DNA of 64,000 nt from an uncultured Oscillospiraceae bacterium (lineage in GTDB: Bacteria > Bacillota > Clostridia > Christensenellales > Aristaeellaceae). This document shows, piece by piece, positions 40,104-58,228 of the stretch. How positions within the stretch are numbered: position 1 is the stretch's first letter; every line of letters begins with the position of its first letter. Made by a program: the position numbers and the translations under genes. Below the pieces are notes generated by a model. It saw only the letters and a program-made list of their open reading frames with translations. It ran no database searches and was not told the origin of the DNA. Location of the stretch: positions 2,306 to 66,305 of the forward strand of contig CAZEIC010000001.1 of NCBI GenBank assembly GCA_964512175.1. Direction: 5' to 3'.

Positions 40104-40633
40104 ACTTCCTCCACGATGATGTTGTCGTTGGTGAACACGCAGATGGACGCGGCGACGTGCAGCGCCTTATCGGCGATCTCGCGCGCCGAAAGGTCGGTGT
40201 TCTGTATCAACGCGCGCGCTGCGGCAAGCGCGTAATTGCCGCCCGAGCCGATGGCGCACACGCCGTCGTCCGGGTCGATGACCTCGCCCGTGCCCGACAG
40301 GATCAGCAGGCTTTCCTTGTTCGCCACGATCATCATGGCTTGCAGCTGCCGGAGCACCTTATCGCCGCGCCAGTCCTGCGCGAGGTTCACCGCCGCGCGC
40401 TCGAGGTTGCCGCCGCACTGCATGAGCTTTTCCTCGAAGCGCTCGCACAGCGTGAACGCGTCGGCGACCGAGCCCGCAAAGCCCACCGCCACCTGCCCGT
40501 CGAGGATGCGGCGCACCTTCTTCGCCGAGTTCTTGAAGATGGTGTTCTCCCCCATCGTCACCTGACCGTCGCCCGCGATGGCGGTCACGCCGTTCCTGCG
40601 CACGGCGCATATGGTCGTTCCCATCATGCTCAT
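40100..40633 (-). CDS. hslV: ATP-dependent protease subunit HslV
   Basis: The protein starts [11 protein letters not shown], with a Thr nucleophile after processing, and contains [10 protein letters not shown] and GSGGNYA. The ATGA start/stop overlaps occur on both sides. Confidence 0.93.
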
Positions 40634-41904
40634 AAACCGTTTTGCTCCTTTTCTGTCGTAGATATCCAGTCGATGATGTCTCTGGCGACCGCCGCGTCCA
40701 GCAGCGCGGGCGTCGCGTACTCCGACACCGTGCCGCGATAGCGCTCGTCGCCCGTATAGCGCATCAGCAGATGATTGAGGTTCGGATAATGCTTGTAGTC
40801 CACAAAATCGCGTTCGCCAAGCGCTTCGCGCCACGCGTCCATGCCGATAGCGTCGCGCACCTGAAAATCCGCGCCGCCGTTGAGAATGAGCGTCGGCAGC
40901 GCAAGGTCGAGAAGCGCCGCCGGCATGTCGGTCGGCATGGTGTTGAAATACGGCGTATCGCCGCCTTGCAGCTCGGCGGATTCCTCGCCAGCAAGCTCCT
41001 TTTGCTGCGCGGCGACGACCTCCAGCAGCGTCCTTGGCGAGCCGCACAACAGCAGCATGCCGGAGAACGCGCCGCCCGACAGCCGCGCGATCTCGGGCGC
41101 GAGCATCGCGCCGAGGCTGTGCCCGCACAGGTAAATATTGGCAATCCTATCGTCCGCACGCAGCAGCGCAGCCGCCGCCAGCGCGTCGTCCACCATCTCG
41201 TCATACACGGAAAAATCGGCGTAATCCTCGCTCGATGCGATCTTTTCGCCGTAGACCAGCGTGCGCTTGTCGTACCGCAACGAGGCGATACCCGCCTCCG
41301 CGAGCGCGTAGGCAAGGTCGCGGAACATTTTGGTGCGCCCGATCGTCTCGTCCCGGTCGTTGGGCCCCGAACCGTGAACCAATAACACGGCGGGCACGGG
41401 CGCGCCCGCGTCCTTGGGCAGCGTCAGCGTGCCGGGGAGCGCCCACTGGGTATCTTTTCCAATCACGACCTCGGTTTCCGTCGCGCCGTCCGGCAGCGAA
41501 AGCGCCGCGAACTCCACGTTTTCGATTTCGGGCGCGGGCGACACGAACAGCCCCGCAATCTTGCCGTTTTGGTCGTACGTCACGGTCGCCGTCAAATCAT
41601 TGCCCGTCATGAGCATGTGCACGGCGTGCACGGAATACGCCTCCACTTGGGCGACCGTCTCGCTGTGGAAGCCGACGAACTCGCCGCCCAGCGCGCGCAT
41701 CTGCCCCCACAGCAGCGCAAGCTGCGCCTTGGGAAAGGCGTTTTGCATGGTATCGTCAAACTGCGCAAACAGCGCGTCGTCCTGGTCGCCCGCCATGAGC
41801 GCGGTCAGGAATGCGCGCGCGGAACTGTCCGTCACCTCGGCAAACGCGCATGAAAAGAGCAAAACCAGCGACAACAGGAAGCAAAATCCGCGTTTCATCT
41901 TCAT
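40630..41904 (-). CDS. Secreted DUF3887-like domain fused to an alpha/beta hydrolase
   Basis: The signal peptide is [22 protein letters not shown]. The N-terminal region [12 protein letters not shown]...LWGQM...G is DUF3887-like. The hydrolase part has [10 protein letters not shown] and the nucleophile elbow GHSLGA. Confidence 0.8.
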
Positions 41905-41934
41905 CCCTCCCACGCAAAGCATACCACAAACGGC

Positions 41935-43266
41935 TTATCCCTGTCGAGTCTGTGCCGCCGTAATGTCCAAATCGGCGGCTATCTCCCGCACAACCGCGAG
42001 CGCGCGATCGGCAATCGCCTCATAGCGCTGCTGCTTGTTGCGGATGCGCGCAGGCGGCGCGTCCATCAGCCCGAACGTCGCGTTCATGGGCTGAAAATTG
42101 CGGTTGGCGGCGGACACATAGCAGCCCAGCGCGCCGATGGCGGTGCTTCTGGGGAACGTAATTTCCGGCAAGCCAAGCATGCGCCGCGCAAGCGACACCC
42201 CGGCGACCAGCCCGCTCGCCGCGCTCTCGACATACCCCTCCACGCCCGTCATCTGCCCCGCGAAATACAGCCCGGGGAGCGAGCGCATCTGGTAGCTCGC
42301 GTCCAGCAAGCCGGGGCTATTGAGGAAGGTATTGCGGTGCATCACGCCATAGCGCGCGAACGTCGCGTTTTCCAGCCCGGGAATCAGCCCGAACACGCGC
42401 TTTTGCTCGGGGAATTTGAGGCGCGTCTGGAAGCCGACGAGGTTGTACAGCGTCGCCGAAGCGTCGTCCTGCCGAAGCTGCACGACGGCGAACGCCTCTT
42501 TTCCGGTGCGCGGGTCGAAAAGACCCACCGGCTTCATCGGCCCGAATGCCAGCGCCATATGCCCCCGGCGCGCCATCGACTCCACCGGCATGCAGCCCTC
42601 AAACACCGCGTCTTCCTCGAACCCGTGCACGGGCGCGGTCTCGGCGGTCAACAGCGCGGCAACGAACGCATCGTATTCCTCGCGCGTCATCGGGCAGTTG
42701 AGGTAATCCTCGCCGCGCCCGTAGCGCGAGGCGCGGTAGATTTTGTCCATGTCCAGCGATTCCGCCGTGACGATGGGCGCGGCGGCGTCGTAGAAATGCA
42801 GCGTCCCGACCTCGGGCTTGGCGGATATGGCGTTTGCCAGCGCGTCCGAGGTCAGCGGTCCCGTCGCGACGATCGCGGGCGGCGCGGGCATTTCCGAAAC
42901 CTCCGCGCGCACGATCTCAACCAGCGGATGGCTCTCCAAAGCGTCGGTGATATGCCCGGAAAACGCTTCCCTGTCCACCGCCAGCGCGCCGCCGGCTGGC
43001 ACGCGCGCCGCGTCCGCCGCGCGCATGACGAGCGAGGACAGCGCGCGCATTTCTTCCTTTAATAAGCCCACGGCGTTTTGCAGCCTGTCGGAGCGCAGCG
43101 AATTGGAGCAGACCAGCTCCGCAAAGCGCGGCGAATGGTGCGCCGGGCTCATGCGCGCGGGCTTCATTTCCATCAACCGCACGGGCACGCCCATGCGCGC
43201 GAGCTGCCACGCCGCCTCGCACCCCGCCAGCCCCGCGCCGACGACGGTCGCGCGGCGCTCACTCAT
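41935..43266 (-). CDS. trmFO: Methylenetetrahydrofolate--tRNA-(uracil-5-)-methyltransferase TrmFO
   Basis: [16 protein letters not shown] is the FAD GxGxxG motif, followed by ELVCSNSLR and [16 protein letters not shown]. Confidence 0.93.
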
Positions 43267-45370
43267 CTTTTTCCTCGACCGGCACGCGGTGGCGGCACGT
43301 CTCGTTGGCGCATAGATGCCACGCGTCGCCCTTGCGCCCGCGCTTGAGCGTCATATAGCCGCCGCACTTCTCGCAGCGCTCGCGCACCGGCATCTCCCAC
43401 GACACGAACGAGCACTCGGGGTATTTCTCGCAGCCGTAAAACTTGCGGTTCTTCTTGCTCGTCTTCTCCAGCAGCCGCGCGCCGCAGACCGGGCACGGCG
43501 CGTCGATATACACCAGCACGGGCTTGGTGTTGCGGCAGTCGGGGAAGTTCGGGCAGGCGAGGAACTTACCGTACCTGCCCATGCGGTAGACCATCTGCGC
43601 GCCGCATTTATCACAAACCACGTCGGACGGCTCGTCCTTGATGTGCACCTTTTCGATCGTCTGCTCCGCCTCTTTGAGCGTCTTCTCGAACGGCGGGTAG
43701 AACTCGCGCAGGATATCGCGCCAATCCTTGCCGCCCGCCTCAATGGCGTCGAGCTTGTTTTCCAGCCCGGCGGTGAACTCGGGGTCTACGATGTCGCCAA
43801 AGTAATTGGTCATCATGCTGGTCACCATGCGCCCCAGCTCGGTCGGGAACAGGCGCTTGTTTTCCCTTGCGACATACCCGCGCGCGATGATCGTCGTGAT
43901 CGTCGGCGCGTAGGTGGACGGTCTGCCGATGCCGCGCTCCTCGAGCACGCGCACGAGCGAGGCTTCGGTGTATCGCGCGGACGGCTGCGTGAAGTGCTGC
44001 GCGACCTCGGTCTCCGTCACCGTCACAGCGTCGCCCACCGCGAACACCGGCAGCGTGGATTCCGCCGTTTCGGCGGCGTCGTCCTGACTCTCTTCATACA
44101 CGCCCGTGAATCCGGCAAAGCGCTTGTGCTCGCCGATAAACCGCAGCCCCACGCCACCGCCCTGCACGTCCATCGTCAGGGTATCGTACACCGCGCTCGT
44201 CATCTGGCTGGCGATGAACCGCGAGTAGATCAGCCGATACAGCTGGAACTGCTCCTTGGTCAGCGAGCCTTTGATGTCCTCCGGCACGCGGCGAACGTCG
44301 GTCGGGCGGATCGCCTCGTGCGCGTTCTGCGCGTTGGAACGGCTCTTGTAGACGTTTGGTTCGGGCGGCAAAAACGCCTCGCCGAAGCGCTCGGGGATGT
44401 ATTCGCGCACGGCGGCGAGCGCCTCGTCGCTGACGGTCACGGAGTCTGTGCGGATGTAGGTGACGATGCCCTGCAAGCCCTCGTTTTCAAGCTCTACGCC
44501 TTCGTAGAGCTGCTGGACGACCTGCATGGTCTTTTGCGTGGTGAAATTGAGCTTGCGCCCCGCCTCCTGCTGCAAGCTGGAGGTCGTGAACGGCGGCGCG
44601 GGCTGGCGCTTGCGCTCGCCCGGCTTCATCGCCTGCACGGCGAACGTCGCTTTCTCGATGCGCGCTTTGGCGGCTTCCGCCTGCTCAGCGTTCGTGACCG
44701 ACGCTTTCTCGCCATCGAGCGTGGCGAGCTTGAGCTTGAACGTCGTCTTGCGCCCGCGCGCGTTGGGCAGCAGCGCCGTCGCCGTCACATCCCAGAATTC
44801 CTCGGGGATGAACGCCTCGATGTCCTGCTCCCTGTCCACGACCAGCCGCGTCGCCACGCTCTGCACGCGCCCCGCCGACAGCCCTTTTTTCACCTTCGCC
44901 CACAAAAGCGGGCTGATTTTGTAGCCCACCAGCCTGTCCAGCGCGCGGCGCGCCTGCTGCGCGTCCACCAAGTCCATGTCCAGCGGACGCGGGCTGGCGA
45001 GCGCGTTCTGAATCGCCTTTTTGGTGATCTCGTGGAACTCGATGCGGCACGGCTGCTCGGTGTCCATCGAAAGCGTCTGCGCCAGATGCCAAGAAATCGC
45101 CTCGCCCTCGCGGTCAGGGTCAGTCGCCAGAAAGATGCGCGACGCGCCCTTGGCTTCCTTGCGGATGCGCATGAGGATCTTGCCCCTGCCGTGAATCGTG
45201 ATGTACTTCATGGCGTAGTCGTTTTCGGTGTCCACGCCGATTTGCGATTTGGGCAGGTCGCGCACATGCCCCTGCGAAGCCTCCACCTTGTAGCCCTTCC
45301 CCAGAAATTTTGCGATCGTGCGCGCCTTCGCGGGCGATTCCACGATCACGAGTTTATACGCTGCCGCCAT
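43259..45370 (-). CDS. topA: DNA topoisomerase I
   Basis: The TOPRIM region reads [18 protein letters not shown]. The active-site region reads YIRTDS. The C-terminus carries several CxxC zinc-ribbon repeats. Confidence 0.95.
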
Positions 45371-45394
45371 GTTCTTCCTCCACCTTATCCGTAT

Positions 45395-46474
45395 TTATCT
45401 TGCGAGCCTGTACGCGCGCCCCGGAAGCTTTTCCAGCTTGCCGTACATTTCAAGAATCGTCAGTTGCGCGCCGAGCGCGTCGGACGTGAGCCCCGTCTCG
45501 GTCATCAGTTCCTCGAACGTTTTTTCCTCATAAAACAGCGCGCGCAGCACGGGGTCGTCGGGCATGTCGCTTTCTTCCTGCGTTGCGACGGGCTGCAGCG
45601 TCCAGCGCATTTCCGAGAGGATATCCTGCGCGCAGGTGCACAGCACGCCGCCCTCGTGCAGCATTTTCAGCGGGATGGCGCTGCCCGGCGCGTCCACCTC
45701 GCCCGGGAGCGCGAACACCGTGCGCCCTTGATTGAGCGCGTGGTTGACGGTCGAAAACGAGCCGCTTTTCTCGCGCGCCTCGGTCACGAGCGTCGCGTGC
45801 GACAGCCCGCTGATGACGCGGTTGCGGTACGGGAAATGGTACGGCTGCGGCGGAGCGTCCAGCGCGAACTCGCTGACGATCGCGCCGCCCGACGCGACGA
45901 TTCTGTCGGCAAGCTCCTTGTTTTCCTCGGGGTACACCCTGCCGATGCCGCAGCCGAGCACCGCCACCGTGCGCCCGCGCGCGTCGAGCGCGCCCTCGTG
46001 CGCCGCCGTGTCCACGCCGCGCGCCAGCCCGCTGACGACCGTCACGCCGACCTCCGCCAGCTCTCTCGCGATGCGTCGGGACTGCGCTTTGCCGTAGCGC
46101 GTCGCGGCGCGCATGCCGATGACCGCGACGGCGAATTCCTCCGCGCGCATGTCGCCGCGCACAAACAGCACGTCCGGCGGGTCGGCGATGTGCGACAGCA
46201 GATAGGGGTACTGCGGAGAACCGAGGAACAGCGCGTGCGCACCGTATCGCTCGAGCTGCGAAAGCAAGCCCTCCAGCCCCGCGTCGCGCCGCGCCTTGAG
46301 CGCGCGGTACACGTTGTCGCCCAGCGTATCTCGGTGGCGCTCGCCGAACGTCTCATACAGCGCCTGCGCGCCGCCGAGCGCGTCCGCCAGCCGCATGCGC
46401 GCGTTGAGCCTGTCGATCGGCGCGTCCGCCAGCCAGATTCGACAAAGCTGCTCTTTCGTATACGTCAACCGCAT
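45395..46474 (-). CDS. dprA: DNA-processing protein DprA
   Basis: The Rossmann-like DprA core reads VAVIGMRAATRYG...VVSGLARGVDTAAHEGAL...TVAVLGCG. The C-terminus is winged-helix-like. The ATG at 46474 shares one base with the comM stop. Confidence 0.9.
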   Translation of the reverse strand: MRLTYTKEQLCRIWLADAPIDRLNARMRLADALGGAQALYETFGERHRDTLGDNVYRALKARRDAGLEGLLSQLERYGAHALFLGSPQYPYLLSHIADPPDVLFVRGDMRAEEFAVAVIGMRAATRYGKAQSRRIARELAEVGVTVVSGLARGVDTAAHEGALDARGRTVAVLGCGIGRVYPEENKELADRIVASGGAIVSEFALDAPPQPYHFPYRNRVISGLSHATLVTEAREKSGSFSTVNHALNQGRTVFALPGEVDAPGSAIPLKMLHEGGVLCTCAQDILSEMRWTLQPVATQEESDMPDDPVLRALFYEEKTFEELMTETGLTSDALGAQLTILEMYGKLEKLPGRAYRLAR

Positions 46475-48018
46475 CAACTCCAATACTTTCCGTCCATCGA
46501 GCGATACTGCACCGCCTCCGCCATGCACGCGGGCGTGACCGTTTCCTCGCCGGACAAATCGGCGATCGTCTGCGCGACGCGGCGCAGGCGGTCGTAGGCG
46601 CGCATGCTCATGCCGAACCTGTCCATCGCGAGCGTCAGCAGCTTGCGCGCTTCCTCCGTCATCAGGCAAAACGCGTCCAGCGCGCTTGCCGGAAGCTGCG
46701 CGTTACAGTGGTACGGCGTGCCCGCGAACCTTTGCGCCTGCCTGTCCCGCGCGCGCTGCACGCGCTCGCGCACGGCGCGCGTGCCCTCGGCGGCGGGCGC
46801 GGACGCGACCTCGGCGACCGGCACGGCGTCCACCTCGACTTGGATGTCGATGCGGTCCAGCAGCGGTCCCGACACGCGGGCGAGGTATTTACGGATCTCA
46901 TGCTCCGAGCAGCGGCACTTTTTCATGCGGCTGCCGTAAAAGCCGCACGGGCACGGATTCATGCTGGCAACCAGCATGCAGCGGGACGGGTACTGCGTGC
47001 GCGCGCGGACGCGCGAGATCGTCGCCACGCCGTCCTCCAGCGGCTGCCGGAGCGCCTCGAGCGCCGAACGCGGGTATTCGGGCAGCTCGTCCAGAAACAG
47101 AACGCCGTTGTGCGCCAGCGAGATCTCGCCCGGCGCGGCGTTGGAGCCGCCGCCCACCAGCGCGGGCATCGACGCGGAATGATGCGGCGTGCGGAAGGGA
47201 CGCTCGGTCATCAGCCCCGCGTCCGGCGGCAGCAGCCCCGCGACGCTGTGGATGCGCGTCGTTTCAAACGCCTCGTCGAGCGTCATTTGCGGCAATATGC
47301 CCGGCAGGCAGCGCGCGAGCATCGTTTTGCCGCTGCCCGGCACGCCGACCATCAGCAGGTTATGTCCGCCCGCCGCCGCGACCTCCAGCGCCCGACGCGC
47401 GCCCTGCTGCCCGCGTATCTGCGCAAGGTCGCAGCGGATGTCCTGCGCGGACAGCAGCGCTTCATAGGCGACCTGTTCCTGCGCGGGGATGGGGTCGCGC
47501 CCGCAAAGGTGCGCGACGGCTTCCGAAAGCGAGCGCGCGGGGTGCACGTTCAAGCCCTGCACCGCCTGCAATTCCTTGGCGTTCCCGGCAGGCAGGATGA
47601 TGTCCCGGATACCGTGCGCCTGCGCGCCCAGCGCGATCGCCAGCGCGCCGCGCACCGGCACGAGCCGCCCGTCGAGCGCAAGCTCGCCCACCAGCAGCGG
47701 TTCGCTCTGTACGCGCGCCGCCGCCTGACGGCTCGCGAAGATCAGCGCGACGGCAATCGACAGATCGAACGCCGCGCCCTCCTTGCGCAAATCGGCGGGC
47801 GAAAGGCTGACGGTCGTCTGCCCCATCGGCATGGCAAAACCCGAATTGCGCAGCGCGGCGCTCACGCGGTCGCGGCTCTCGCGCACGGCGGTGTCGGGCA
47901 GCCCCGCCATCGCAAACACCTGCGCGCCCCCGCCGCCGGCGCAGTACGCCTCGACCGTCACAAGCTCGCCCTCGACCCCCGTCAGGGCAAAGCACAGCGT
48001 TCGCGCGAGCATGGGCAT
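46474..48018 (-). CDS. comM: YifB/ComM-family Mg-chelatase-like AAA+ ATPase
   Basis: The N-terminal Lon-protease-like domain is followed by Walker A MVGVPGSGKTMLA and Walker B VLFLDELPE. The Cys cluster is NPCPCGFYGS...CRC. Confidence 0.92.
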   Translation of the reverse strand: MPMLARTLCFALTGVEGELVTVEAYCAGGGGAQVFAMAGLPDTAVRESRDRVSAALRNSGFAMPMGQTTVSLSPADLRKEGAAFDLSIAVALIFASRQAAARVQSEPLLVGELALDGRLVPVRGALAIALGAQAHGIRDIILPAGNAKELQAVQGLNVHPARSLSEAVAHLCGRDPIPAQEQVAYEALLSAQDIRCDLAQIRGQQGARRALEVAAAGGHNLLMVGVPGSGKTMLARCLPGILPQMTLDEAFETTRIHSVAGLLPPDAGLMTERPFRTPHHSASMPALVGGGSNAAPGEISLAHNGVLFLDELPEYPRSALEALRQPLEDGVATISRVRARTQYPSRCMLVASMNPCPCGFYGSRMKKCRCSEHEIRKYLARVSGPLLDRIDIQVEVDAVPVAEVASAPAAEGTRAVRERVQRARDRQAQRFAGTPYHCNAQLPASALDAFCLMTEEARKLLTLAMDRFGMSMRAYDRLRRVAQTIADLSGEETVTPACMAEAVQYRSMDGKYWS

Positions 48019-48037: not shown

Positions 48038-51000
48038 TCAATACCAAATCCAGTTCTGGAATATGCGGACGGCTTCCATCCACGAGATGGGCGCCATCAC
48101 GCCGCTGGCATACGGGAAATACGCGATGAACACGGCGGCGGCAAGCGCGATGAACCCCCATGCCGCCCATTTGCCGATTTTGGGCGCAACGTCATATAGC
48201 CAGTCAAAGCACAGCGCGATGCACAGGATGATGAACGGCACGCTGGTGAAGTAGTGGTAGATGTACGTCCCGCGCGGCACGAACATCCACGGAACGAACT
48301 GCGCGGCGTAGGAAATCAGCAGCAGCGCGGGGCGCATGTCGTTTTCCTTGGTGTGCAGCGCCGGAACGCCCGCGCGCACATGCCGCCAGATCATGACGCA
48401 CAGCGCGACGACCGCCGCCAGCAGCCCGCCCCACCAGATGGCGAGGTTGCCCAGCGCCGTGATGCTCACCGCCATGCCGAACGGCTCGAACTTGCCTTGA
48501 TGGTAGAAAATGGGCTGTAAGCACAGCGGCCACTCGTACCACGGCGAGGCGAACGGGTGATCCGCGCCGCGCCCCGGCTCGGAATGGTATTCCAGCATGC
48601 CCTGCGCCGCCTGCACGACGCGCTCGAGCGACACGCCGCCAGCCGCGCGGAAGTACGGGATATAGGACAGGTAGTAAATCAGCGCGGGAATGGCGACGAA
48701 GAACGCGAGGCAACACGCGAGCGTCAGCAGGATGCGCTTGTTGGCGGTCTGCGCGGCGACCTCGATGACGGCGTCGCGCGCGAACGGTGTCTCTGGCTTT
48801 TCCTTGCGTTTCCTCGGCTTATCCCTTTGCGCGAGCATCGCGCGCGCGCAAACGCCCTCGCGCCAGCGCCTGTACATCGACCAGAAGAAGACGACCGCCA
48901 GCCCAACGCCCGCGTAGCAGCCCGTCCATTTGCTGGCGACCGCCAGCCCGAAAAACAGCCCCGACAGCCCCAGCGGCACGAGCGTTTTCCAGAAGGGCAC
49001 GGCGAAAAAGTCCATCAATACGTACCGGAACATGCAGTAGGACGCAAGGATGATGAACAGCACCACGAAGCTGTCGATGGTGGCGATGCGCGTCTGCGTG
49101 AAGTGCATGCAGTCCAGCGCCAGCAGCAGCATCGGCATCGCGGCAAGCAGCCGGCGTTTTGTCAGAAGTTTGCCCAGCATATACATGCCCGGCAGCATCA
49201 ACACGCCGCAGAGCGCGCCCGCGAAGCGCCAGCCGAACGGCGTCATGCCGAAGATGGCGATCGCCCAGCTGATGAACACCTTGCCAAGCGGCGGGTGCGA
49301 AGTCTCGTAGGTGCGCAGCCCGTGCAGATGCTCGTAACCCGTGCGCGCGTGGTACATCAAAATACATGCTGTTGAACCACGAAGGCTCGTCGGTCATCAC
49401 GGTTTGCTCGTCGATCAGCGCCTGCGCGTCTTCCAGCGCCTCCACGCCTTCTTCCAACACCAGCGACACCGGCAATACCTCGCCCGTGTCCGCGTCGCGG
49501 AACTGGATCTCCCAGATGTCGATGCCGATGTCCTTGGCGGTCAGCAGGATATAGCGCCCCTGCATCTCGCGCGTGGCGGCGAGGTAGGAGATCGCGCCCG
49601 GCTCGCCCGCCGTCTCAACGACGTACTTCCACTGGTAGCAGTCGCCGTCGGTCAGGCAGGCGTAGTACGCCTCGCCGTAGTACGCGCCGTCCTCGCTCGT
49701 CTGCAAGGTAAACTCCGAGTTCTGCGGCCAGTGGATGCCGCCGTAATACAGCGCCCGGAAACGCCGTGTTTCGCCCAAATCGAGCACCACCTGCTCGTCC
49801 CATTCATGCGCCGTCCAGCTCGTCTGCGGCGCTTGCGTCGCGCCGAGATTGACCAGCGCGAGCACGGCGTACAAAGCCGTCGCCGTCAGCATGATCAGCC
49901 AGTCTTTTTTGTCCATTCGCCTTGTCTCGGGCGGGTTGCGCAGCGTGCGCGCCGCGTGCGATTCCAGCGGCGCGTCCTGCCGCGTCGGCGCTTCGCGAGC
50001 GGCAGACAGCGGCGGCAGCGGCGCTCTGTCCGGGTCGGTGACGGCGCCGGACAGATACAGCGCGTAAGCCAGCGCCGCGCAGTTGAGCGCCGAGAGAAGA
50101 TACTCCAGCGCGGCGGAATCGCTCTCGATGCCCGCCACGGGCGCTTGCAGGTGCGCCGCCGCGCCGCCGATGCGGATGTTTCTGTCCAGCACGAGCGACA
50201 CGTTGAGGAACACCGTCGCCATCAGAAGGATGGCAAGCCATAGCGCGCGCCTGTCCTTTTCCAGCGCGTAAGCGACGAGGAACAGCGGCACGGCGGCGAA
50301 CAGGTAGCGCTCGTGCATCATGCCGCCCAGCACGAACATCGCAAGCAGCAGCACGCCGCCCATGAACGGCAGATGCCGGATGGAGCGCCCGCGGAAGTAG
50401 ACAGCGGCGGCGCAGACGACGCACACGCAGAGCATCAGCGCGCTATACGCGCCGTAGGTCATCGCAACGGGCAGCAGCGCGATTTGCGCGAGCACGCACA
50501 GCGCGATGTACGGCGCGGGCGCGCGCAGGTCTAGCAGCTTCTTATAGTCGCCTTTCGCGCGCCAGACCAGCCAGCCGAGCGCCGGCAGGAACAGGCAGAT
50601 CGCTGTAAAGCGCAGACCGAAGGGCGCAAGCGTCCCGGCGGGCGTCCAGTTCTTGCCAAACAGGAAGTACAGGTTGCAGCCGTTGACCGAGGCGTAGCCG
50701 TACTGCCCCATCGTGTCGCCGTATAGTTCGAGCAGCCAGCCGACGCCGCCCATGTTCACCGAGAACGGCGCGATAACGGCGATCGCCAGCACAAGCGCCG
50801 CGCCCAGCCCAATCAGCATGTCGCGCAGCGTCTTTTTATCGAAATGCCAGACAAGCTCGCAAATCAGCGCCATCAGCCCCAACGGCCCGAACATCAACGC
50901 CTGCGGCTTCATGAGCACCGACAGCATGTATACAGGCAGCGCGAAGCGCCACTTGCCGTCCGCCGCGAAAAGCACGGTCAACAGAATCAGCAGCGTCAGC

Positions 51001-52145
51001 ACGCTGTCGGTTTGCCCCCATGCGGCGCTGGTCGCAAACGCCATCGGCGAAAACGCGAACAGCATGGACAGCGCGGCGGCGGCGGTCGCGGGCAGGTACC
51101 GCTTTCCGATATAATAGAGCGTCAGCGCGATGCCGATATCGCAGAGGATGGGCGGCAGCTTGACCGCCAGCTCGCTCGCGCCCGCCCCGCCCGACAGCGC
51201 GTCGACCAGCCAGAGCACGAGCATATAGGCGGGCGGATAATCGCTGTGCCCCGCCCCGAGGTAGAAATTCGCAGGACCGCCCGCGCCCATGGCGCTCGCC
51301 CAGCCCCGGAAACAGCCGATGTCCACGTCGTACCCCGGAATCGTCCCGGCGATCAGCAGCCGCAGCCCCAGCGCGACCAGCAGCAGCGCGCCCAGTGCAA
51401 ACGGCACGGCGCGCTCGCGCTTGTCATCGAGCGCTTTCATCTCGCGCATGCCGTCCATGTAACGCGCGAGGAACGCGCAGACGGCGCACGCGGCGAGCGC
51501 GACCGGCAGCAGCCACCGCCACGCGGGCGAAGGCTCGTCCGAGGCGGGCTGCGCGGAAGCGACCTGATACAGCTTCTGCAGCGCGTACCCCGACGGCACG
51601 CTGTCCACGCGCATGAGGCTCACGCTGTCGAACGTCGCCTCGCCCGTCGCCTCGCCCGAATACCCGCCGAGCCGCGCGAAGACCGTCAGCCGCGTCTGCG
51701 ATTCGCCCGTTTGCCCGTAAAGCGCGATTTCGCGCCATTCGCCGCCGGTGTCGTACACAGCGTCCGACAGGGCGTTCACACCCTCGACCGACACGTTCGC
51801 GCCGTACCCGCCCGCGCAGTCCGCCTTGACGCGCGCGGTGAGCCTGTACATCGTGTTTGGCGACACCGAGACGATTTGCGCGAAACGCGCGTCGTTGGCG
51901 GCGTGGTTGACGATCGTGACAACGCCGTTCTCCGCGGAATACTCGGTGTACCCGGGCGTGGCGATCCACGCGTCGGTATACCACTGGCTCGGCAGCCCGG
52001 CGGCGTCGAGCGCCTCAAACTCGGTGTTGGCAAGCAGCTCCTCATACGTGCCGCCGCCCGAGCGACCGCCCGTAAGCAGCAAAACGGCGGCCGCGATCGC
52101 GACGAGCGCGGCGGCGATGATGATCCACAGTGTCTTTTTGTTCAT
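48038..52145 (-). pseudogene. Giant membrane glycosyltransferase gene interrupted by a frameshift near 49355. The upstream part (52145..~49356) has a TM anchor, a CBM-like domain, a GT-C-like polytopic domain and a discoidin-like domain. The downstream part (49360..48038) is a PMT/GT39-type glycosyltransferase.
   Basis: The two listed ORFs (48819..52145 and 48038..49360) overlap in different frames. The meaningful sequence of the first ends at ...SWFNSMYFD. The second begins (L)MYHARTGYEHLHGLRTYETSHPPLGK, a PMT-family N-terminus. The remaining roughly 180 codons of the first ORF are Arg/Ala-rich off-frame sequence. Confidence 0.7.
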
Positions 52146-52154
52146 GGTCGCTCC

Positions 52155-52490
52155 TCAAAACGCGCCGGGATAGTGGTTCACGCCCGCCGCCGTGATATCC
52201 AGAATATCAAAGCGCGCGTCGGGCTTGGGATGAAACCTTTGCATGTAGCCTTCCGCCGCGCGGCGCACCCTGCGGCGCTTGTCCGCGTCCACAGCCGCAG
52301 CGCCCGCGCCGATGCGCCCCGACGGGCGGTACTTGACCTCGAAGAACACGAGCAAGCCGTCTTTCCTTGCGATCAAATCGATTTCGCCGCCCGCCGCGCG
52401 GTACCTGCTAGCCACCACGCGGTAGCCATTCGCTTTCAGGTATCGCCGCGCGAGCAGCTCGCCCCGTATGCCGAGAAGGTATGCGTTCAT
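52155..52490 (-). CDS. yraN: YraN-family (UPF0102) endonuclease-like protein
   Basis: GELLARRYLKANGYRVVASRYRAAGGEIDLIA...VFFEVKYR is the characteristic PD-(D/E)xK pattern of this family. Confidence 0.85.
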   Translation of the reverse strand: MNAYLLGIRGELLARRYLKANGYRVVASRYRAAGGEIDLIARKDGLLVFFEVKYRPSGRIGAGAAAVDADKRRRVRRAAEGYMQRFHPKPDARFDILDITAAGVNHYPGAF

Positions 52491-53107
52491 ACGTTGATAA
52501 AATGCCCGATGAAGCTGCGCCTATGCGCGGGGCACGCGCCGCACGCGCGGAGCGCGGCGATGTGCTCGGGCGTGCCGTAGCCCTTGTGCTTGGCAAAGCC
52601 GTACTCCGGATACAGCGCGTCGAGCAGCAGGCAATCCTTGTCGCGCGTGACCTTGGCGACGACGCTCGCCGCCGCGATCGAATAGGAAAGCGCGTCGCCG
52701 TGCTCGATGGCGCGCGTTTCGCCGGGCAACCCCAGCCCCGTCACGGCGTCCACCAGAAAAATCTGCGCGCCCGCGCCCTCCGCCGCGCGGCGCATGGCGT
52801 TCTTCGTCGCCTGCAATATGTTGATATCGTCGATTTCGGCGGGTGACGCTTTGCCTACGCCCACAAACAGCGCCGTTTGCAGGATCTCCTCGTAGACCTG
52901 CTCGCGCCGCGCGGGCGAAAGTTTCTTGGAATCGTCCACCCACGGCAGCAGCGGATACGGCGGCATCACGACGCACGCGGCGACCACGTCCCCGGCAAGC
53001 GGGCCTCTGCCCGCCTCGTCGATACCCGCCACGCGCATGCCCAGCGCCCACAGCGCCGCGTCGTGCGCGGCGAGCGCCTCAACCCTTTGCAGCCTGCTCT
53101 GTCGCAT
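52487..53107 (-). CDS. rnhB: Ribonuclease HII
   Basis: Motifs include AGIDEAGRGPLAGDVV, DDSKKL and GYGTPEH. Confidence 0.93.
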   Translation of the reverse strand: MRQSRLQRVEALAAHDAALWALGMRVAGIDEAGRGPLAGDVVAACVVMPPYPLLPWVDDSKKLSPARREQVYEEILQTALFVGVGKASPAEIDDINILQATKNAMRRAAEGAGAQIFLVDAVTGLGLPGETRAIEHGDALSYSIAAASVVAKVTRDKDCLLLDALYPEYGFAKHKGYGTPEHIAALRACGACPAHRRSFIGHFINV

Positions 53108-53948: not shown

Positions 53949-54090
53949 GCGAGCCTCTTTTTCCAGAATTTGTCATACAAACCCAATGTCGAGTTTTCCT
54001 TATAGTAATATCATGCTTTCCACTAAAAAGCAAGGAACATTTTCATATTTTACAGTTCGTTTGCACATGCTACCGGGCGAGGTGAACTGC

Positions 54091-56304
54091 ATGCAGGCGA
54101 TCATCATGGCGGGCGGCGAGGGCGTGCGCCTGCGTCCCATGACGCTCGACAGACCCAAGCCCATCGTCCCGCTGCTGGGCGAGCCGGTCATGGGCTACGC
54201 CCTCAAGCTCCTCAAAAGCCACCGCGTGACCGATGTGACCGCGACGCTCTATTACCGCCCCAAGGACGTGCGCGCCGCCTTCGGCAAGGGCGAGCGCTAT
54301 GGCGTGCGCATGCGGTATCAGGAGGAAGCCGTGCAGATGGGCACGGCGGGCGGCGTGCTGCTGGCGGGCGCGCACGTCAAGGGCACGTTCCTCGTGCTCT
54401 CGGGCGACGGGCTGACAGACTGCGATCTGTCCGACGCGCTCAAATTCCACAAAGAAAAGGGCGCGCTGGCGACGCTCGTCGTCAAGCGCGTGCCCGTGCC
54501 GCTCGCATACGGGCTGGTGCTGACGGACGAAGGCGGGCGCATCAAGCGGTTCATCGAGAAGCCGGGCTGGCGGCAGGCGTATTCCGATTTGTGCAACACC
54601 GGGTTGTATATATTGGAGAGGCGGCTGTTGGACGCGATCCCCGAGGGCGTGCCCTACGACTTTGGCAAGCAGCTTTTCCCGGCGCTGCTCGAAAAAGGCG
54701 AGAAGCTGTACGCCTACGAAACGCCGGGGTACTGGTGCGACGTGGGCGATCAGGCGGCGTATCTGCGCGCCCAGCGCGACCTCATGGCGGGTAAAGTACG
54801 CGTCGCGCTGCCCGACTGCGTGCGCATTTCCGACGGCGCGTGGCGCGACGCTTCGGCGCGCGTGCATGAGAGCGCCGTGCTCGAGGACGGCTGCTACATC
54901 GGCGAGAACGCGATCGTCGGCGCGGGCGCGCGGCTGTCGCGCTGCTGCCTGTGGCGCGGCGCGCGGGTGCGCGAGAAAAGCGAACTGGCGGGATGCGTCG
55001 TCTGCGATCGCGCGACGGTCGGCGTTTCGGCGCGGCTGTCGCAGGATACCGCGCTCGCAGCAGGCGCGTCGGTCGGCGCGCGCGCGTTCCTCGCGCCCGG
55101 GGTGAAGGTCTACCCGTCGCTGCGCGTCGCGCCCGACGCGGTCGCGATGGAAACGGTCATCTACGGCGACTACGCGTGCCCGCGCTTTGAGGAAATCGCC
55201 TCGCCCCAGCAGGCGTGCGCGCTGGTTTCCGCGCTCTGCCGCGCGCGCCCCGCCAAACGCGTGGTATTGCAGCGCACCGAGGGCGCGGAGGCGCTCTATC
55301 ACGTCGTGGCGGGCGCGCTTTTGCGCATGGGCGCGGACGTGATCCTCGCCGATCTCGGCACGCCCGGCATGCTCGCGGCGCTCGTGCGCGCGCTGCGCGC
55401 GGGGCAGGGCGTGTTCGTGCATCAGGACGCGCTCGACGCGCGCGATCAGCGCGGACTGCCCTATCCCCGTCCGGCGCTCGCCGCCGTCGAGCAGGCGGCG
55501 CTTCGCCGCGAGGGCGACCAGCCGAGCGAGCAGCCCGGTCAGACAAGCGCGTTCACGGGCGCGGTGGAGGTATACGCGGCAAGCCTGCCCGACGCGCCCG
55601 CCGCGTGCGCCGCGCTGCCCATCGCCGTCGTCTCGCAAAGCTCGCATATTCGCGCGCTCGCACGCGAGGTGCTGACCCGAAAAGGCATGAAAAACGCGCG
55701 CGTGACCGACGATCAGGCGCTGCTTCCCGGCGAGACGGGCTTTCTGCTCCCCTCGGACGGAACGCGCGCGCTGGCGTATGCGTCCGGCGTCACGCCGCCC
55801 GAGGAAACGCAGGCGCTGCTGCTGGCGCGCGCGCTCGCGAACGCGGGCGAGCAAACGCTCTATGCCTTTGACGGCTTGCCGTCGGCGGCGGAGACGCTCG
55901 CGCCCGTGCAGCCGCCGGACGGCAGCGAAGCCTGCGCGCGACAAACGCTGATGTGGTCGGACGGTCTTTCACGCATGCTGCTGACGCTGCCGCTGCTGAT
56001 GGAGCGTCCGCTGGACGGCTTGCTCGCCGCGCTGCCCGCCGCGCACATGATATCACGCGACGTGCCCTGCCCCGCCTCCGGCAAGAGCCGCGTGCTGCGC
56101 GCGCTCGCGGATACGGGCGGCGACGTGACGCTCGGCAGCGGCGTGCGCATCCACGATATGCGCGGCACCGCTTCCATCCTGCCCGACGAAACCCGCGCGA
56201 GCGTGCGCGTCACGGCGGAATCGGCAAACGCCGAGTTCGCCTGCGAACTGTGCGATTTCTATTCGGACAGGGTCGCGAAAGCCGCGCGCGGGGAAACAGA
56301 ATGA
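54091..56304 (+). CDS. Sugar-1-phosphate nucleotidyltransferase with a left-handed beta-helix region, fused to a degenerate phosphohexomutase-like C-terminal half
   Basis: The N-terminus is MQAIIMAGGEGVRLRPMT. Hexapeptide-repeat-like sequence follows. The C-terminal roughly 400 aa are collinear with PGM/PMM domains but carry no TASHNP-type phosphoserine loop. An in-frame ATG at 54067 is an alternative start. Confidence 0.8.
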   Translation: MQAIIMAGGEGVRLRPMTLDRPKPIVPLLGEPVMGYALKLLKSHRVTDVTATLYYRPKDVRAAFGKGERYGVRMRYQEEAVQMGTAGGVLLAGAHVKGTFLVLSGDGLTDCDLSDALKFHKEKGALATLVVKRVPVPLAYGLVLTDEGGRIKRFIEKPGWRQAYSDLCNTGLYILERRLLDAIPEGVPYDFGKQLFPALLEKGEKLYAYETPGYWCDVGDQAAYLRAQRDLMAGKVRVALPDCVRISDGAWRDASARVHESAVLEDGCYIGENAIVGAGARLSRCCLWRGARVREKSELAGCVVCDRATVGVSARLSQDTALAAGASVGARAFLAPGVKVYPSLRVAPDAVAMETVIYGDYACPRFEEIASPQQACALVSALCRARPAKRVVLQRTEGAEALYHVVAGALLRMGADVILADLGTPGMLAALVRALRAGQGVFVHQDALDARDQRGLPYPRPALAAVEQAALRREGDQPSEQPGQTSAFTGAVEVYAASLPDAPAACAALPIAVVSQSSHIRALAREVLTRKGMKNARVTDDQALLPGETGFLLPSDGTRALAYASGVTPPEETQALLLARALANAGEQTLYAFDGLPSAAETLAPVQPPDGSEACARQTLMWSDGLSRMLLTLPLLMERPLDGLLAALPAAHMISRDVPCPASGKSRVLRALADTGGDVTLGSGVRIHDMRGTASILPDETRASVRVTAESANAEFACELCDFYSDRVAKAARGETE

Positions 56305-56659: not shown

Positions 56660-58228
<1,569 letters not shown>

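What the first reader, a model, noticed from the sequence alone, without database searches (positions are those of the whole stretch)
48038..52145. Giant chimeric glycosyltransferase: two GT-C-like membrane modules and two carbohydrate-binding-like modules on one reading unit
With the frameshift bridged, the locus would encode roughly 1,370 aa. The parts, in order, are:
- an N-terminal TM anchor;
- a roughly 150-aa beta-sandwich-looking segment (NTEFEALDAAGLPSQWYTD ... ATFDSVSLMRV) resembling CBM4_9/galactose-binding-like modules;
- a long polytopic region with GYDVDIGCFRGWA and HSDYPPAYMLVLW, which recall the first-loop acidic motif and DYPP motif of GT-C enzymes (ALG6/8-, Gpi18/PIG-V-, DUF2029-like);
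- another TM;
- a discoidin/F5-8-type-C-like segment (WDEQVVLDLGETRRFRALYY ... IWEIQFRD);
- a PMT/GT39-type module (YHARTGYEHLHGLRTYETSHPPLGK ...).

Two lipid-carrier-dependent glycosyltransferase modules plus two lectin-like modules in one polypeptide is not an architecture I can match to a described enzyme. The gene sits between otherwise conserved housekeeping neighbours: rbgA-rnhB-yraN on one side and comM-dprA-topA on the other.
Basis: partly seen in the sequence, partly recalled or inferred. Interest (0 to 1): 0.7.

Follow-up and report, generated by a model that had tools for sequence, protein, structure and literature searches.

The report
Broken fused double membrane glycosyltransferase gene
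This is one about 1,370-codon gene, broken here by a 5-base deletion, for a membrane enzyme that joins two lipid-sugar-dependent glycosyltransferases and two sugar-binding-like domains; the design is real but common in Clostridia and Paenibacillus and has never been studied experimentally.

Summary
On the minus strand, 52145-48038 is a single gene cut into two ORFs by a 5-nt deletion. All 82 homologous loci examined read TTY GAY GAR ATC TAY; the window reads TTT GAT G TAC. The deletion removes the Glu of the PMT 'DE' catalytic motif.

The repaired protein has these parts, in order:
- a membrane anchor;
- a CBM4_9-like beta-sandwich;
- a GT87/ALG6/PimE-like GT-C module;
- a TM helix;
- a CBM32/discoidin-like sandwich placed in loop 1 of a PMT (GT39) module.

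The 'unmatched architecture' reading is only half right. More than 100 intact single-ORF homologues (44-50% identity, full length) exist. They occur in at least 80 species genomes: Clostridia MAGs plus cultured Paenibacillus and Gorillibacterium. In Clostridia they sit in the same rnhB/yraN-X-comM slot. A July 2026 preprint mentions the Paenibacillus GT39-GT87 fusion in passing.

Elsewhere the two halves are adjacent separate genes. In Bacilli the gene is followed by a PgfS/GtrB-like GT2, GtrA and a sortase.

Best model: extracytoplasmic, polyprenyl-phosphate-sugar-dependent O-glycosylation. The PMT module would initiate and the GT87-like module would extend, as Pmt and PimE do in mycobacteria. 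The function is inferred, not shown. Interest is moderate.

The parts
48038..52145 (-). Whole gene (about 1,370 codons once the 5-nt deletion is repaired). GGAG ribosome-binding site 6 nt upstream of the ATG at 52145. Nine nt separate it from the yraN stop, and 19 nt separate its own stop from the comM start.
52071..52139 (-). N-terminal membrane anchor (aa 3-25). It follows the positively charged MNKK, so the N-terminus is inside.
   Evidence: Hydropathy; helix 3-25 in the model
51570..52043 (-). Extracytoplasmic CBM4_9-like beta-sandwich (aa ~35-192). Invariant motifs: NDARF.Q, GANLS, RLGGYSGE.
   Evidence: Foldseek: 4d0q TMt 0.71, CBM4 1gui, CBM16, CBM61. Window sequence: weak Pfam CBM_4_9_1. 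Stand-alone relatives pass CBM_4_9. Invariants:
51441..51521 (-). Return TM helix (aa 209-235), which brings the chain back to the cytoplasm before module 1.
50040..51425 (-). GT-C module 1 (aa 241-702, about 14 TM helices), GT87/ALG6/PimE-like. Invariant D275 lies at the start of the first extracytoplasmic helix. Other invariant motifs: DYPP 302-305, WGQxD 376-380, KPQ 413-415, MHERY 610-614.
   Evidence: Pfam PMT_2 37.9 bits. Foldseek: ALG6 6snh E 2e-5, PimE 9dm5, GPI-MT-I 9wno. Relatives pass Pfam GT87. Invariants in 67 of 67 sequences
49911..50039 (-). Low-confidence Pro/Arg-rich cytoplasmic linker between the two enzymes (aa 703-745).
   Evidence: pLDDT 52-75; poorly conserved
49842..49910 (-). 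First TM helix of the PMT module (aa 746-768).
49458..49817 (-). CBM32 / F5-8-type-C (discoidin)-like beta-sandwich (aa ~777-896). It is inserted in extracytoplasmic loop 1 of the PMT module, ahead of the DE motif.
   Evidence: AF2 pLDDT 90.2. Foldseek: CBM32 4a42 and 7d29 TMt 0.55, lactadherin C2. Pfam F5_F8_type_C is weak here but is on record for many homologues
49352..49358 (-). Lesion: GAT G TAC where every homologue reads GAY GAR AT[CTA] TAY. This is a 5-nt deletion. It removes the Glu of the catalytic DE motif and the following Ile, and shifts the frame by +1.
   Evidence: 82 of 82 homologous loci read YFDE[IVL]YH.RT
48041..49354 (-). Rest of the PMT (GT39) module in the second frame (438 codons, no further stop or shift), followed by the stop at 48040-48038.
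   Evidence: Pfam PMT_2, PMT and PMT_4TMC. PDB sequence hits: yeast Pmt4 9e61 E 2e-15, Pmt1 6p25
48819..49355 (-). Out-of-frame tail of ORF A (about 178 codons of non-homologous sequence overlapping ORF B). It is a by-product of the deletion, not a domain.

Best explanation
What the locus is. It is a single gene for a roughly 1,370-aa polytopic membrane protein that fuses two lipid-carrier-dependent (GT-C fold) glycosyltransferases. Each is preceded by a membrane helix and an extracytoplasmic beta-sandwich of carbohydrate-binding-module type. The order is: anchor, CBM4_9-like, TM, GT87/PimE/ALG6-like module, cytoplasmic linker, TM, CBM32-like, PMT (GT39) module.

Topology. By helix order, both sandwiches and every invariant polar motif of both modules face the outside of the cell.

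Inferred mechanism:
- A GtrB/PgfS-type GT2 loads a monosaccharide onto undecaprenyl phosphate in the cytoplasm.
- A GtrA-type protein helps flip it across the membrane.
- The PMT module transfers the sugar to Ser/Thr of secreted or wall-anchored proteins.
- The GT87-like module adds further residues from the same donor, as Pmt and PimE do as separate enzymes in mycobacteria.
- The sandwiches hold the glycosylated acceptor near the active sites, a role like the MIR domain of eukaryotic PMTs.

State in this window. A 5-nt deletion has destroyed the DE motif and split the gene. As deposited, the PMT half is dead. The first half would carry a 178-residue nonsense tail.

Shown: gene unity, the lesion, the domain folds, conservation, synteny and the partner genes in relatives. 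Inferred: donor, acceptor, division of labour and the role of the sandwiches.
For: One gene:
- More than 100 single-ORF homologues of 1340-1440 aa, with 97-100% coverage.
- Alignment is continuous across the break.
- 82 of 82 homologous loci have YFDE[IVL]YH.RT where the window lacks 5 nt.

Two GT-C modules:
- Pfam PMT, PMT_2 and PMT_4TMC on the C-terminal half. PMT_2 above cut-off on the first module.
- Model of aa 1-745 has pLDDT 89.8. Foldseek matches ALG6, PimE and GPI-MT-I.
- Stand-alone relatives pass Pfam GT87.

Module 1 looks catalytic and autonomous:
- D275, DYPP, WGQxD, KPQ and MHERY are invariant in 67 of 67 fused proteins, and D275, DYPP, WGQxD and MHERY recur in all five stand-alone forms read while KPQ is kept in three of the five (KPH and KPQG variants in the others).
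- Complete 640-700-aa stand-alone forms exist.

Functional coupling (Rosetta stone):
- The stand-alone form lies next to a separate PMT gene in L084 and close to one, two genes away, in L085. In one contig it lies right after yraN, with the next gene overlapping it by 4 nt.

Donor:
- In 6 of 6 Bacilli loci the gene is followed by a GT2 whose best NCBIfam matches are PgfS and ArnC, then by GtrA.
- GT2 genes also sit in both stand-alone clusters L084 and L085, and a GtrA gene in L084.

Protein acceptor:
- Homology to PMT.
- A sortase gene downstream in 4-5 of 6 Bacilli loci.
- Precedents: Pmt plus PimE in Actinobacteria (PMC12757957), and PgfS or GtrB plus a GT-C enzyme glycosylating Ser/Thr-rich regions in streptococci (PMC12041528).
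Against: - No experiment exists on any family member.
- The C-terminal module scores 51 bits against the 800-bit cut-off of the NCBIfam Pmt equivalog. It is therefore not an orthologue of the characterised actinobacterial Pmt, and the sugar need not be mannose.
- The window's module 1 does not itself reach the Pfam GT87 threshold.
- Its active-site assignment rests on invariance and spacing relative to PimE, not on a superposition.
- No GT2 or GtrA gene lies within the 64-kb window.
- CBM-type domains and the PimE precedent (a glycolipid acceptor) would fit a glycan or lipid acceptor equally well.
- The preprint reads the fusion as a Pmt1-Pmt2-like dimer, with a possibly non-catalytic partner.
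Confidence: 0.55

Rival explanations
1. Pseudo-heterodimer model. The GT87-like module is mainly a structural partner of the PMT module, holding or recruiting the acceptor as Pmt2 does for Pmt1. The fusion hard-wires an obligatory PMT dimer rather than a second catalytic step.
For: The preprint 10.64898/2026.07.15.738315 reports two things. Mycobacterial Pmt is predicted to pair with ML2687c, a GT87-like protein that lacks catalytic residues. It also cites the Paenibacillus GT39-GT87 fusion (UniProt V9WAU2) as support for dimerisation. In addition, the two halves stay together, fused or nearby in the same cluster, in every context examined.
Against: Unlike ML2687c, module 1 keeps an invariant Asp at the PimE D58-like position. 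It also keeps invariant Lys, His, Gln and Tyr candidates in extracytoplasmic loops in 67 of 67 sequences. It has its own CBM and occurs as a complete stand-alone protein. The two models are not exclusive.
Confidence: 0.2
2. Non-protein acceptor. The enzyme decorates or builds a cell-envelope glycopolymer or glycolipid (secondary wall polymer, teichoic-acid-like polymer or lipoglycan). The two CBM-like domains would bind the growing glycan.
For: - Both sandwiches have CBM folds.
- The nearest structural relatives of module 1 (PimE, GPI-MT-I, ALG6) act on lipid-linked glycans.
- GtrA/GtrB/GT-C sets in Firmicutes often modify teichoic acids; YfhO is noted in PMC12041528.
- The gene's core-genome position fits an envelope housekeeping role.
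Against: The C-terminal module hits the PMT-specific models PF02366 and PF16192 and solved Pmt4 and Pmt1. All characterised GT39 enzymes act on protein Ser/Thr (established knowledge). A sortase gene is linked in Bacilli.
Confidence: 0.2
3. The break is an assembly or sequencing artefact, and the organism has an intact gene.
For: - There is no other stop or shift in the 438 codons after the lesion.
- GC3 stays at 0.87, and all invariant residues are kept.
- Other assemblies of related species also hold fragments broken at other places (P0131, P0133).
Against: A 5-nt loss in non-repetitive sequence is not a typical homopolymer error. The same 1108-aa truncated product is what the public record holds (P0001). 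No conspecific intact allele was found.
Confidence: 0.35
4. Two genuine genes, or a programmed +1 frameshift, rather than a lesion.
For: Natural two-gene versions of the family exist. ORF B has in-frame TTG and ATG codons at its start.
Against: - Natural splits fall at the domain boundary after module 1, not inside the DE motif.
- Here TM1 and the CBM32-like domain of the PMT module are left on ORF A.
- There is no ribosome-binding site before ORF B and no slippery or stop context.
- Even with a +1 shift the product would lack Glu-Ile, which 82 of 82 homologues keep.
Confidence: 0.03

Closest known systems
Actinobacterial protein O-mannosylation: Pmt (GT39) plus PimE or other GT87 enzymes (PMC12757957; PimE structure PMC12041525)
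   Same: It combines a GT39 enzyme with a GT87-type GT-C enzyme. Both act outside the membrane from a polyprenyl-phosphate-monosaccharide donor. Like the actinobacterial Pmt, the PMT module has no MIR domain. Module 1 has an invariant Asp at the start of its first extracytoplasmic helix, as with D58 in PimE.
   Different: - Here the two enzymes are one polypeptide, with the GT87-like part first.
- Each carries its own CBM-like sandwich.
- The PMT module is far below the NCBIfam Pmt equivalog cut-off (51 against 800 bits).
- The host is Clostridia or Bacilli.
- Sugar and acceptor are unknown.
Paenibacillus GT39-GT87 fusion (UniProt V9WAU2), mentioned in bioRxiv 10.64898/2026.07.15.738315
   Same: It is most probably the same family. 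The Paenibacillus and Gorillibacterium loci found here align over residues ~30-1368 at 32-35% identity with the same four parts.
   Different: That mention is one sentence, with no analysis of the CBM-like domains, distribution, synteny or partner genes. V9WAU2 itself could not be fetched or aligned here. The window's copy is clostridial, sits in a different genomic context, and is broken.
Eukaryotic Pmt1-Pmt2 / POMT1-POMT2 heterodimers (PDB 6P25, 9E61)
   Same: Two GT-C subunits work as a pair. A lectin-like luminal domain accompanies the catalytic membrane domain. The DE motif lies in loop 1. There are sequence hits to Pmt4 and Pmt1.
   Different: - The partner here is a GT87/ALG6-like module, not a second PMT.
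- The lectin-like domain is a CBM32-type sandwich in loop 1, not a MIR beta-trefoil in loop 5.
- The link is a covalent fusion.
Three-component GtrA/GtrB/GT-C glycosylation systems of Firmicutes (streptococcal GtrB-PgtC2 and PgfS-PgfM1; PMC12041528)
   Same: A GT2 whose best match is PgfS, and a GtrA protein, directly follow the gene in 6 of 6 Bacilli loci. These systems carry out extracytoplasmic O-glycosylation of Ser/Thr-rich regions of surface proteins, and a sortase gene is linked here.
   Different: The GT-C enzymes of those systems belong to the YfhO family and have a single module. Here the transferase is a GT87-like plus GT39 fusion. The GT2 scores 305 against a 500-bit cut-off, so it is not a PgfS orthologue.

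Membership tests
GT39 / PMT (protein O-mannosyltransferase) | N-terminal PMT / PMT_2 membrane domain above the Pfam gathering score | tested here: met
   PF13231 62.2 bits (cut-off 26.1); PF02366 50.3 bits (cut-off 22.7), aa 950-1096
GT39 / PMT (protein O-mannosyltransferase) | C-terminal four-TM region (PMT_4TMC) | tested here: met
   PF16192 84.9 bits (cut-off 32.4), aa 1176-1366, covering 4-202 of 202 profile positions
GT39 / PMT (protein O-mannosyltransferase) | Asp-Glu (DE) catalytic motif in extracytoplasmic loop 1 | tested here: not met
   The family has it: YFDE[IVL]YH.RT in 82 of 82 loci. The window reads YFD followed by the frame break, because the 5-nt deletion removes the Glu.
GT39 / PMT (protein O-mannosyltransferase) | Orthology to the characterised bacterial Pmt (NCBIfam equivalog NF058602) | tested here: not met
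   51.1 bits for the window protein and 92.9 bits for the Paenibacillus homologue, against a cut-off of 800
GT39 / PMT (protein O-mannosyltransferase) | Transfer of mannose from polyprenyl-P-mannose to protein Ser/Thr | not testable with these tools
   Needs enzymology or glycoproteomics.
GT87 (PimE-like polyprenyl-P-mannose mannosyltransferases) | Match to Pfam GT87 (PF09594) above the gathering score | tested here: inconclusive
   The window module hits only PMT_2. One of 13 fused members hits GT87, at E 0.74. Stand-alone relatives (33-35% identical to the window module) pass it: 25.1, 29.0 and 35.3 bits against a cut-off of 25.
GT87 (PimE-like polyprenyl-P-mannose mannosyltransferases) | GT-C fold similar to PimE | tested here: met
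   Foldseek 9dm5: E 9e-4, TM 0.57 normalised to the target. ALG6 6snh (E 2e-5, 0.55) and GPI-MT-I 9wno (0.59) match equally well, so the fold does not single out GT87.
GT87 (PimE-like polyprenyl-P-mannose mannosyltransferases) | Catalytic Asp at the tip of the first juxtamembrane helix, plus Lys and His that hold the donor phosphate (PimE D58, K195, H322) | tested here: inconclusive
   D275, K413 and H611 are invariant and lie in extracytoplasmic positions. Spacing is similar: D58 to K195 is 137 residues and D275 to K413 is 138. No superposition or direct alignment to PimE could be made.
GtrA/GtrB/GT-C three-component extracytoplasmic glycosylation system | Adjacent GT2 polyprenyl-phosphate sugar synthase and GtrA-family protein | tested here: inconclusive
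   Present in 6 of 6 Bacilli loci; stand-alone clusters L084 (GT2 and GtrA) and L085 (GT2 only) also carry partner genes. Absent from the 64-kb window and from all but one clostridial locus. The partners may lie elsewhere in the genome.
CBM4_9 and CBM32 (F5/8 type C) carbohydrate-binding modules | Beta-sandwich fold of the family | tested here: met
   N-terminal domain: 4d0q TMt 0.71, 1gui, and CBM16 and CBM61. Middle domain: CBM32 4a42 and 7d29 TMt 0.55. Window Pfam scores are below cut-off (14.8 and 15.7 bits). Relatives pass CBM_4_9, and PF00754 is on record for many homologues.
CBM4_9 and CBM32 (F5/8 type C) carbohydrate-binding modules | Binding of a carbohydrate ligand | not testable with these tools
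   Needs binding assays.

The most novel reading that the evidence does not exclude
The fused protein is a self-contained two-step protein O-glycosylation machine, with PMT initiation and GT87-like elongation and lectin-like domains giving processivity. It would be a vertically inherited core gene of Christensenellales-type gut and rumen Clostridia and of Paenibacillus. General PMT-type protein O-glycosylation, so far studied in bacteria only in Actinobacteria, would then be widespread in Bacillota.
Probability: 0.35. Interest if true: 0.6.

Novelty: new member of a known kind. Interest (0 to 1): 0.35.

Why it matters
Bacterial GT39 enzymes have been studied almost only in Actinobacteria (PMC11727336, PMC12757957). 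This family shows that many gut, rumen and soil Bacillota carry a PMT hard-wired to a GT87-like enzyme. In Clostridia it sits in a conserved core-genome position.

If it glycosylates surface proteins, it would define an unexplored layer of cell-surface chemistry in abundant gut commensals such as the Christensenellales and their relatives.

It would also give a natural single-chain model for how PMTs cooperate with a second GT-C protein.

Cultured Paenibacillus carriers, which have the whole GT2-GtrA-sortase cluster next to the gene, make this directly testable.

The particular copy in this window is damaged and adds little on its own.

Tried and rejected
1. A profile of module 1 against all PDB sequences found no GT-C hit. 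Only the fold search linked it to ALG6 and PimE.
2. I first recalled ALG6 and PimE as 'GT-C_B'. The PimE paper places PimE, ALG6, ArnT and PglB in GT-C_A, so that label was dropped.
Full-length proteins exceed the 1200-aa limit. The relative packing of the two modules (pseudo-dimer or not) therefore could not be modelled. No model coordinates are accessible for mapping invariant residues.
4. The contig encoding P0001 is not on record. The source genome is not among the species representatives scanned, where the best match is 50% identical.
5. An exact-flank scan of JGI metagenomes for an intact or deleted conspecific allele found nothing.
6. A programmed frameshift or two genuine genes: rejected, as set out under the rival explanations.
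7. A recurrent break point: rejected. The other fragmentary products (P0131, P0133) start at other positions and keep the DE motif.
8. No paralogue of any of the four parts lies in the window.
9. No GT2 or GtrA homologue lies in the window.


Full report
**1. The observation**

On the minus strand two ORFs overlap. ORF A runs 52145..48819 (1108 aa). ORF B runs 49360..48038 (440 aa). Translating the three frames around 49280-49460 shows where the genuine reading changes frame.

- It runs in ORF A's frame to ...SWFNSMYFD, with D930 at 49358-49356.
- It continues in ORF B's frame from YHARTGYEH..., with TAC at 49354-49352.
- The last 178 codons of ORF A are out-of-frame sequence overlapping ORF B.
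- The start is well formed: TGA of yraN, then GGAG, then 6 nt, then ATG.
- The stop lies 19 nt before comM.

**2. The lesion**

In the 83 related loci held at that point I found 82 copies of the motif. Every one reads YFDE[IVL]YH.RT, typically TAT TTT GAY GAR ATC TAC CAY. The window reads TAT TTT GAT G TAC CAC. So the window lacks 5 nt.

- The loss removes the Glu of the PMT loop-1 'DE' motif and the next residue, and shifts the frame.
- Nothing else is wrong with the 438 downstream codons. All family-invariant residues are kept and GC3 is 0.87.
- The event is therefore either very recent or an assembly artefact. I cannot tell which.
- The public record holds the same truncated 1108-aa product (P0001).
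- No conspecific intact allele turned up.
- A programmed shift is very unlikely. There is no slippery or stop context, and the shifted product would still lack Glu-Ile.

**3. The parts**

Pfam results on the repaired protein:

- PMT_4TMC, E 7e-24.
- PMT_2, E 9e-17.
- PMT, E 3e-13. All three fall within aa 950-1366.
- The first polytopic region on its own also passes PMT_2 (37.9 bits against a cut-off of 26.1).
- The two soluble segments give only weak CBM_4_9_1 and F5_F8_type_C hits.

AlphaFold2 model of aa 1-745, using 66 homologues, has pLDDT 89.8 and pTM 0.83. Foldseek against the PDB gives:

- N-terminal sandwich: CBM modules 4d0q (TM 0.71), CBM4 1gui, CBM16 and CBM61.
- Membrane part: yeast ALG6 6snh (E 2e-5), PimE 9dm5 and GPI-mannosyltransferase I 9wno, with target-normalised TM 0.55-0.59.

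A second model, aa 739-930 (pLDDT 90.2), matches CBM32 / F5-8-type-C domains. ORF B hits solved yeast Pmt4 and Pmt1 by sequence.

The second polytopic region is a GT-C enzyme module, not a transporter.

Helix order in the model, with the positive-inside N-terminus and linker, places the following outside the cell:

- both sandwiches;
- D275;
- DYPP (302-305);
- WGQxD (376-380);
- KPQ (413-415);
- MHERY (610-614);
- the DE motif.

This placement is an inference from helix parity. The CBM32-like domain sits between TM1 and the DE motif, inside loop 1 of the PMT module.

**4. How common it is**

- A search of 5.8 billion proteins returned more than 100 single-ORF homologues of 1340-1440 aa. They are 44-50% identical over 97-100% of the repaired protein. 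Where named, they are called 'glycosyltransferase family 39 protein' or 'phospholipid carrier-dependent glycosyltransferase'.
- A scan of one genome per species found at least 595 genomes with a relative.
- The best 80 were almost all full length. Seventy-four were clostridial MAGs labelled Christensenellales, Limiplasma, Fimadaptatus, Aristaeellaceae or 'Oscillospiraceae'. Six were Bacilli: Paenibacillus and Gorillibacterium, at 32-35% identity.
- phmmer with aa 1-745 against 1.84 billion cluster representatives gave 3665 hits, 516 of them at E <= 1e-30.

**5. Synteny**

- The 48%-identical homologue P0035 lies in rbgA-rnhB-yraN-X-comM-dprA-topA-trmFO-hslVU.
- Of the 74 clostridial loci, 68 have rnhB or yraN directly upstream.
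- Of the 67 clostridial loci with a downstream flank, 57 have comM directly downstream.
- Fifty-three loci have both.
- The Bacilli loci do not share this context.

The gene is therefore an old, vertically kept resident of this slot, not an insertion.

**6. Evidence on function from relatives**

(a) Stand-alone forms.
- About 86 of the best 150 representatives, by my count, are 1200 aa or longer. About 20 are complete 640-700-aa proteins consisting of anchor, CBM and module 1 only.
- All five read keep D-I-x-x-F/N, DYPP, WGQxD and MHERY; KPQ is kept in three, with KPH and KPQG variants in the other two.
- Three of the five pass Pfam GT87, and two pass CBM_4_9.

(b) Their contexts.
- L084: GtrA, GT2, a PMT_2 protein, a small CBM-like protein, the stand-alone form, a separate 980-aa PMT, then GT2.
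- L085: the stand-alone form, a PMT_2 protein, a CBM_4_9 protein, an 830-aa PMT, then GT2.
- One short contig: yraN, the stand-alone form, then a next gene overlapping it by 4 nt.
- The separate PMT of L084 aligns with the C-terminal half of the fused family at 36% identity. It carries its own copy of the N-terminal CBM-like domain.
- Together these form a Rosetta-stone pattern: two cooperating neighbours that are fused in some lineages.

(c) Bacilli loci.
- In 6 of 6 the fused gene is followed by a GT2 and a GtrA protein. A sortase follows in 4-5 of 6, and in the loci whose further downstream ORFs were listed (L074 and L069, Pfam-confirmed in L074) a transglutaminase-like gene comes next.
- The GT2's best NCBIfam matches are PgfS and ArnC, both below their cut-offs. 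That marks it as a polyprenyl-phosphate sugar synthase of unknown sugar.

**7. Mechanism**

Two precedents frame the model.
- In Actinobacteria, Pmt (GT39) starts protein O-mannosylation and PimE or another GT87 enzyme extends it from polyprenyl-P-mannose (PMC12757957). PimE's key residues are D58, K195 and H322 (PMC12041525).
- In streptococci, a GT2 (GtrB or PgfS) plus a GT-C enzyme glycosylates Ser/Thr-rich extracytoplasmic regions, including those of sortase-anchored adhesins (PMC12041528).

The most economical reading is as follows.
- Und-P-monosaccharide is made by a GtrB/PgfS-like GT2 and flipped with the help of GtrA.
- The PMT module initiates on protein Ser/Thr.
- The GT87-like module elongates.
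- The sandwiches retain the glycosylated acceptor. This is an analogy to MIR domains, drawn from my own knowledge.

What is shown: folds, conservation, fusion versus adjacency, and partner genes. What is inferred: donor sugar, acceptor class, division of labour and the role of the CBM-like domains.

**8. Rivals**

- Dimer model. A preprint predicts that mycobacterial Pmt pairs with a catalytically dead GT87-like protein. It cites the Paenibacillus GT39-GT87 fusion (UniProt V9WAU2) as evidence that PMTs work as dimers. That scaffold reading is possible. However, module 1 here keeps its invariant candidate catalytic residues and exists on its own, so I favour activity.
- Glycan or lipid acceptor. 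This remains open, given the CBM folds and the PimE and ALG6 precedents.
- Artefact. Whether the deletion is real is a separate, unresolved question.

**9. Comparison and novelty**

- The C-terminal module is a GT39/PMT-family member by Pfam. It is not an orthologue of the characterised Pmt (51 against 800 bits). In this window it fails the DE-motif test.
- Module 1 is GT87-like by transitive homology and fold, but does not itself reach the GT87 model.
- Fused GT87-GT39 proteins are already in databases in large numbers and have been mentioned once in the literature. They have not been characterised.
- The window holds a damaged further member. Its value is as a pointer to an unstudied, widespread family for which cultured Paenibacillus strains offer a test bed.

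Noticed in passing
window 54085-56304 (+): A 739-aa sugar-phosphate nucleotidyltransferase lies divergent from rbgA. Pfam hits: NTP_transferase E 7e-47, hexapeptide/LbH, and weak GMPPB_C. It has a long C-terminal extension. It could supply an activated sugar such as GDP-mannose, but it is not a conserved neighbour of the family; it is absent next to rbgA in L081.
   Followed up: partly
L074 13199-15002; L080 13173-13847; also L066, L069: In Paenibacillus the cluster continues with a sortase (Pfam Sortase, E 1e-34 to 4e-39) and a transglutaminase-like protein. This hints that wall-anchored proteins are the acceptors.
   Followed up: partly
L074 5929-7917; L066 223-2220; L069 7740-9308: A second polytopic protein (528-662 aa) lies directly upstream of the fused gene in three Paenibacillus loci. 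It has an ArnT-like 'GLNQDEA' loop and a C-terminal CBM_35-like domain (E 2e-4). It may be a third GT-C of the same pathway.
   Followed up: no
L084 6969-9911, L084 3798-4751, L085 5777-6610: The same CBM4_9-like module recurs on several proteins of the unfused clusters. It appears on the separate 980-aa PMT (N-terminal copy, 29% identical to the fused protein's N-domain) and on small 277-317-aa membrane-anchored CBM-only proteins.
   Followed up: partly
P0131 (507 aa) and P0133 (923 aa) in the 90% cluster of P0035: Other public assemblies of a related species hold C-terminal fragments of the gene starting at different internal Met codons, with the DE motif intact. Long genes of this family are often broken in MAG assemblies, at no fixed site.
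   Followed up: yes
window 56687-58228 (+): A GH51-type alpha-L-arabinofuranosidase (Alpha-L-AF_C, E 1e-47) lies just beyond the nucleotidyltransferase. It is unrelated to the finding.
   Followed up: no
window 36598-38745 (-) and 38742-43266 (-): Downstream of topA the order trmFO (GIDA), a 430-aa secreted-looking ORF and hslU (AAA_2) matches the homologous locus L081. A second topoisomerase-like ORF (715 aa, '[16 protein letters not shown]') follows; it was not checked.
   Followed up: no
window 43316-46597 (+), 50844-52580 (+) and others: Very long ORFs (up to 1093 aa) run antisense to real genes. They are Arg/Ala/Pro-rich and are a by-product of 64-70% G+C, not genes.
   Followed up: partly
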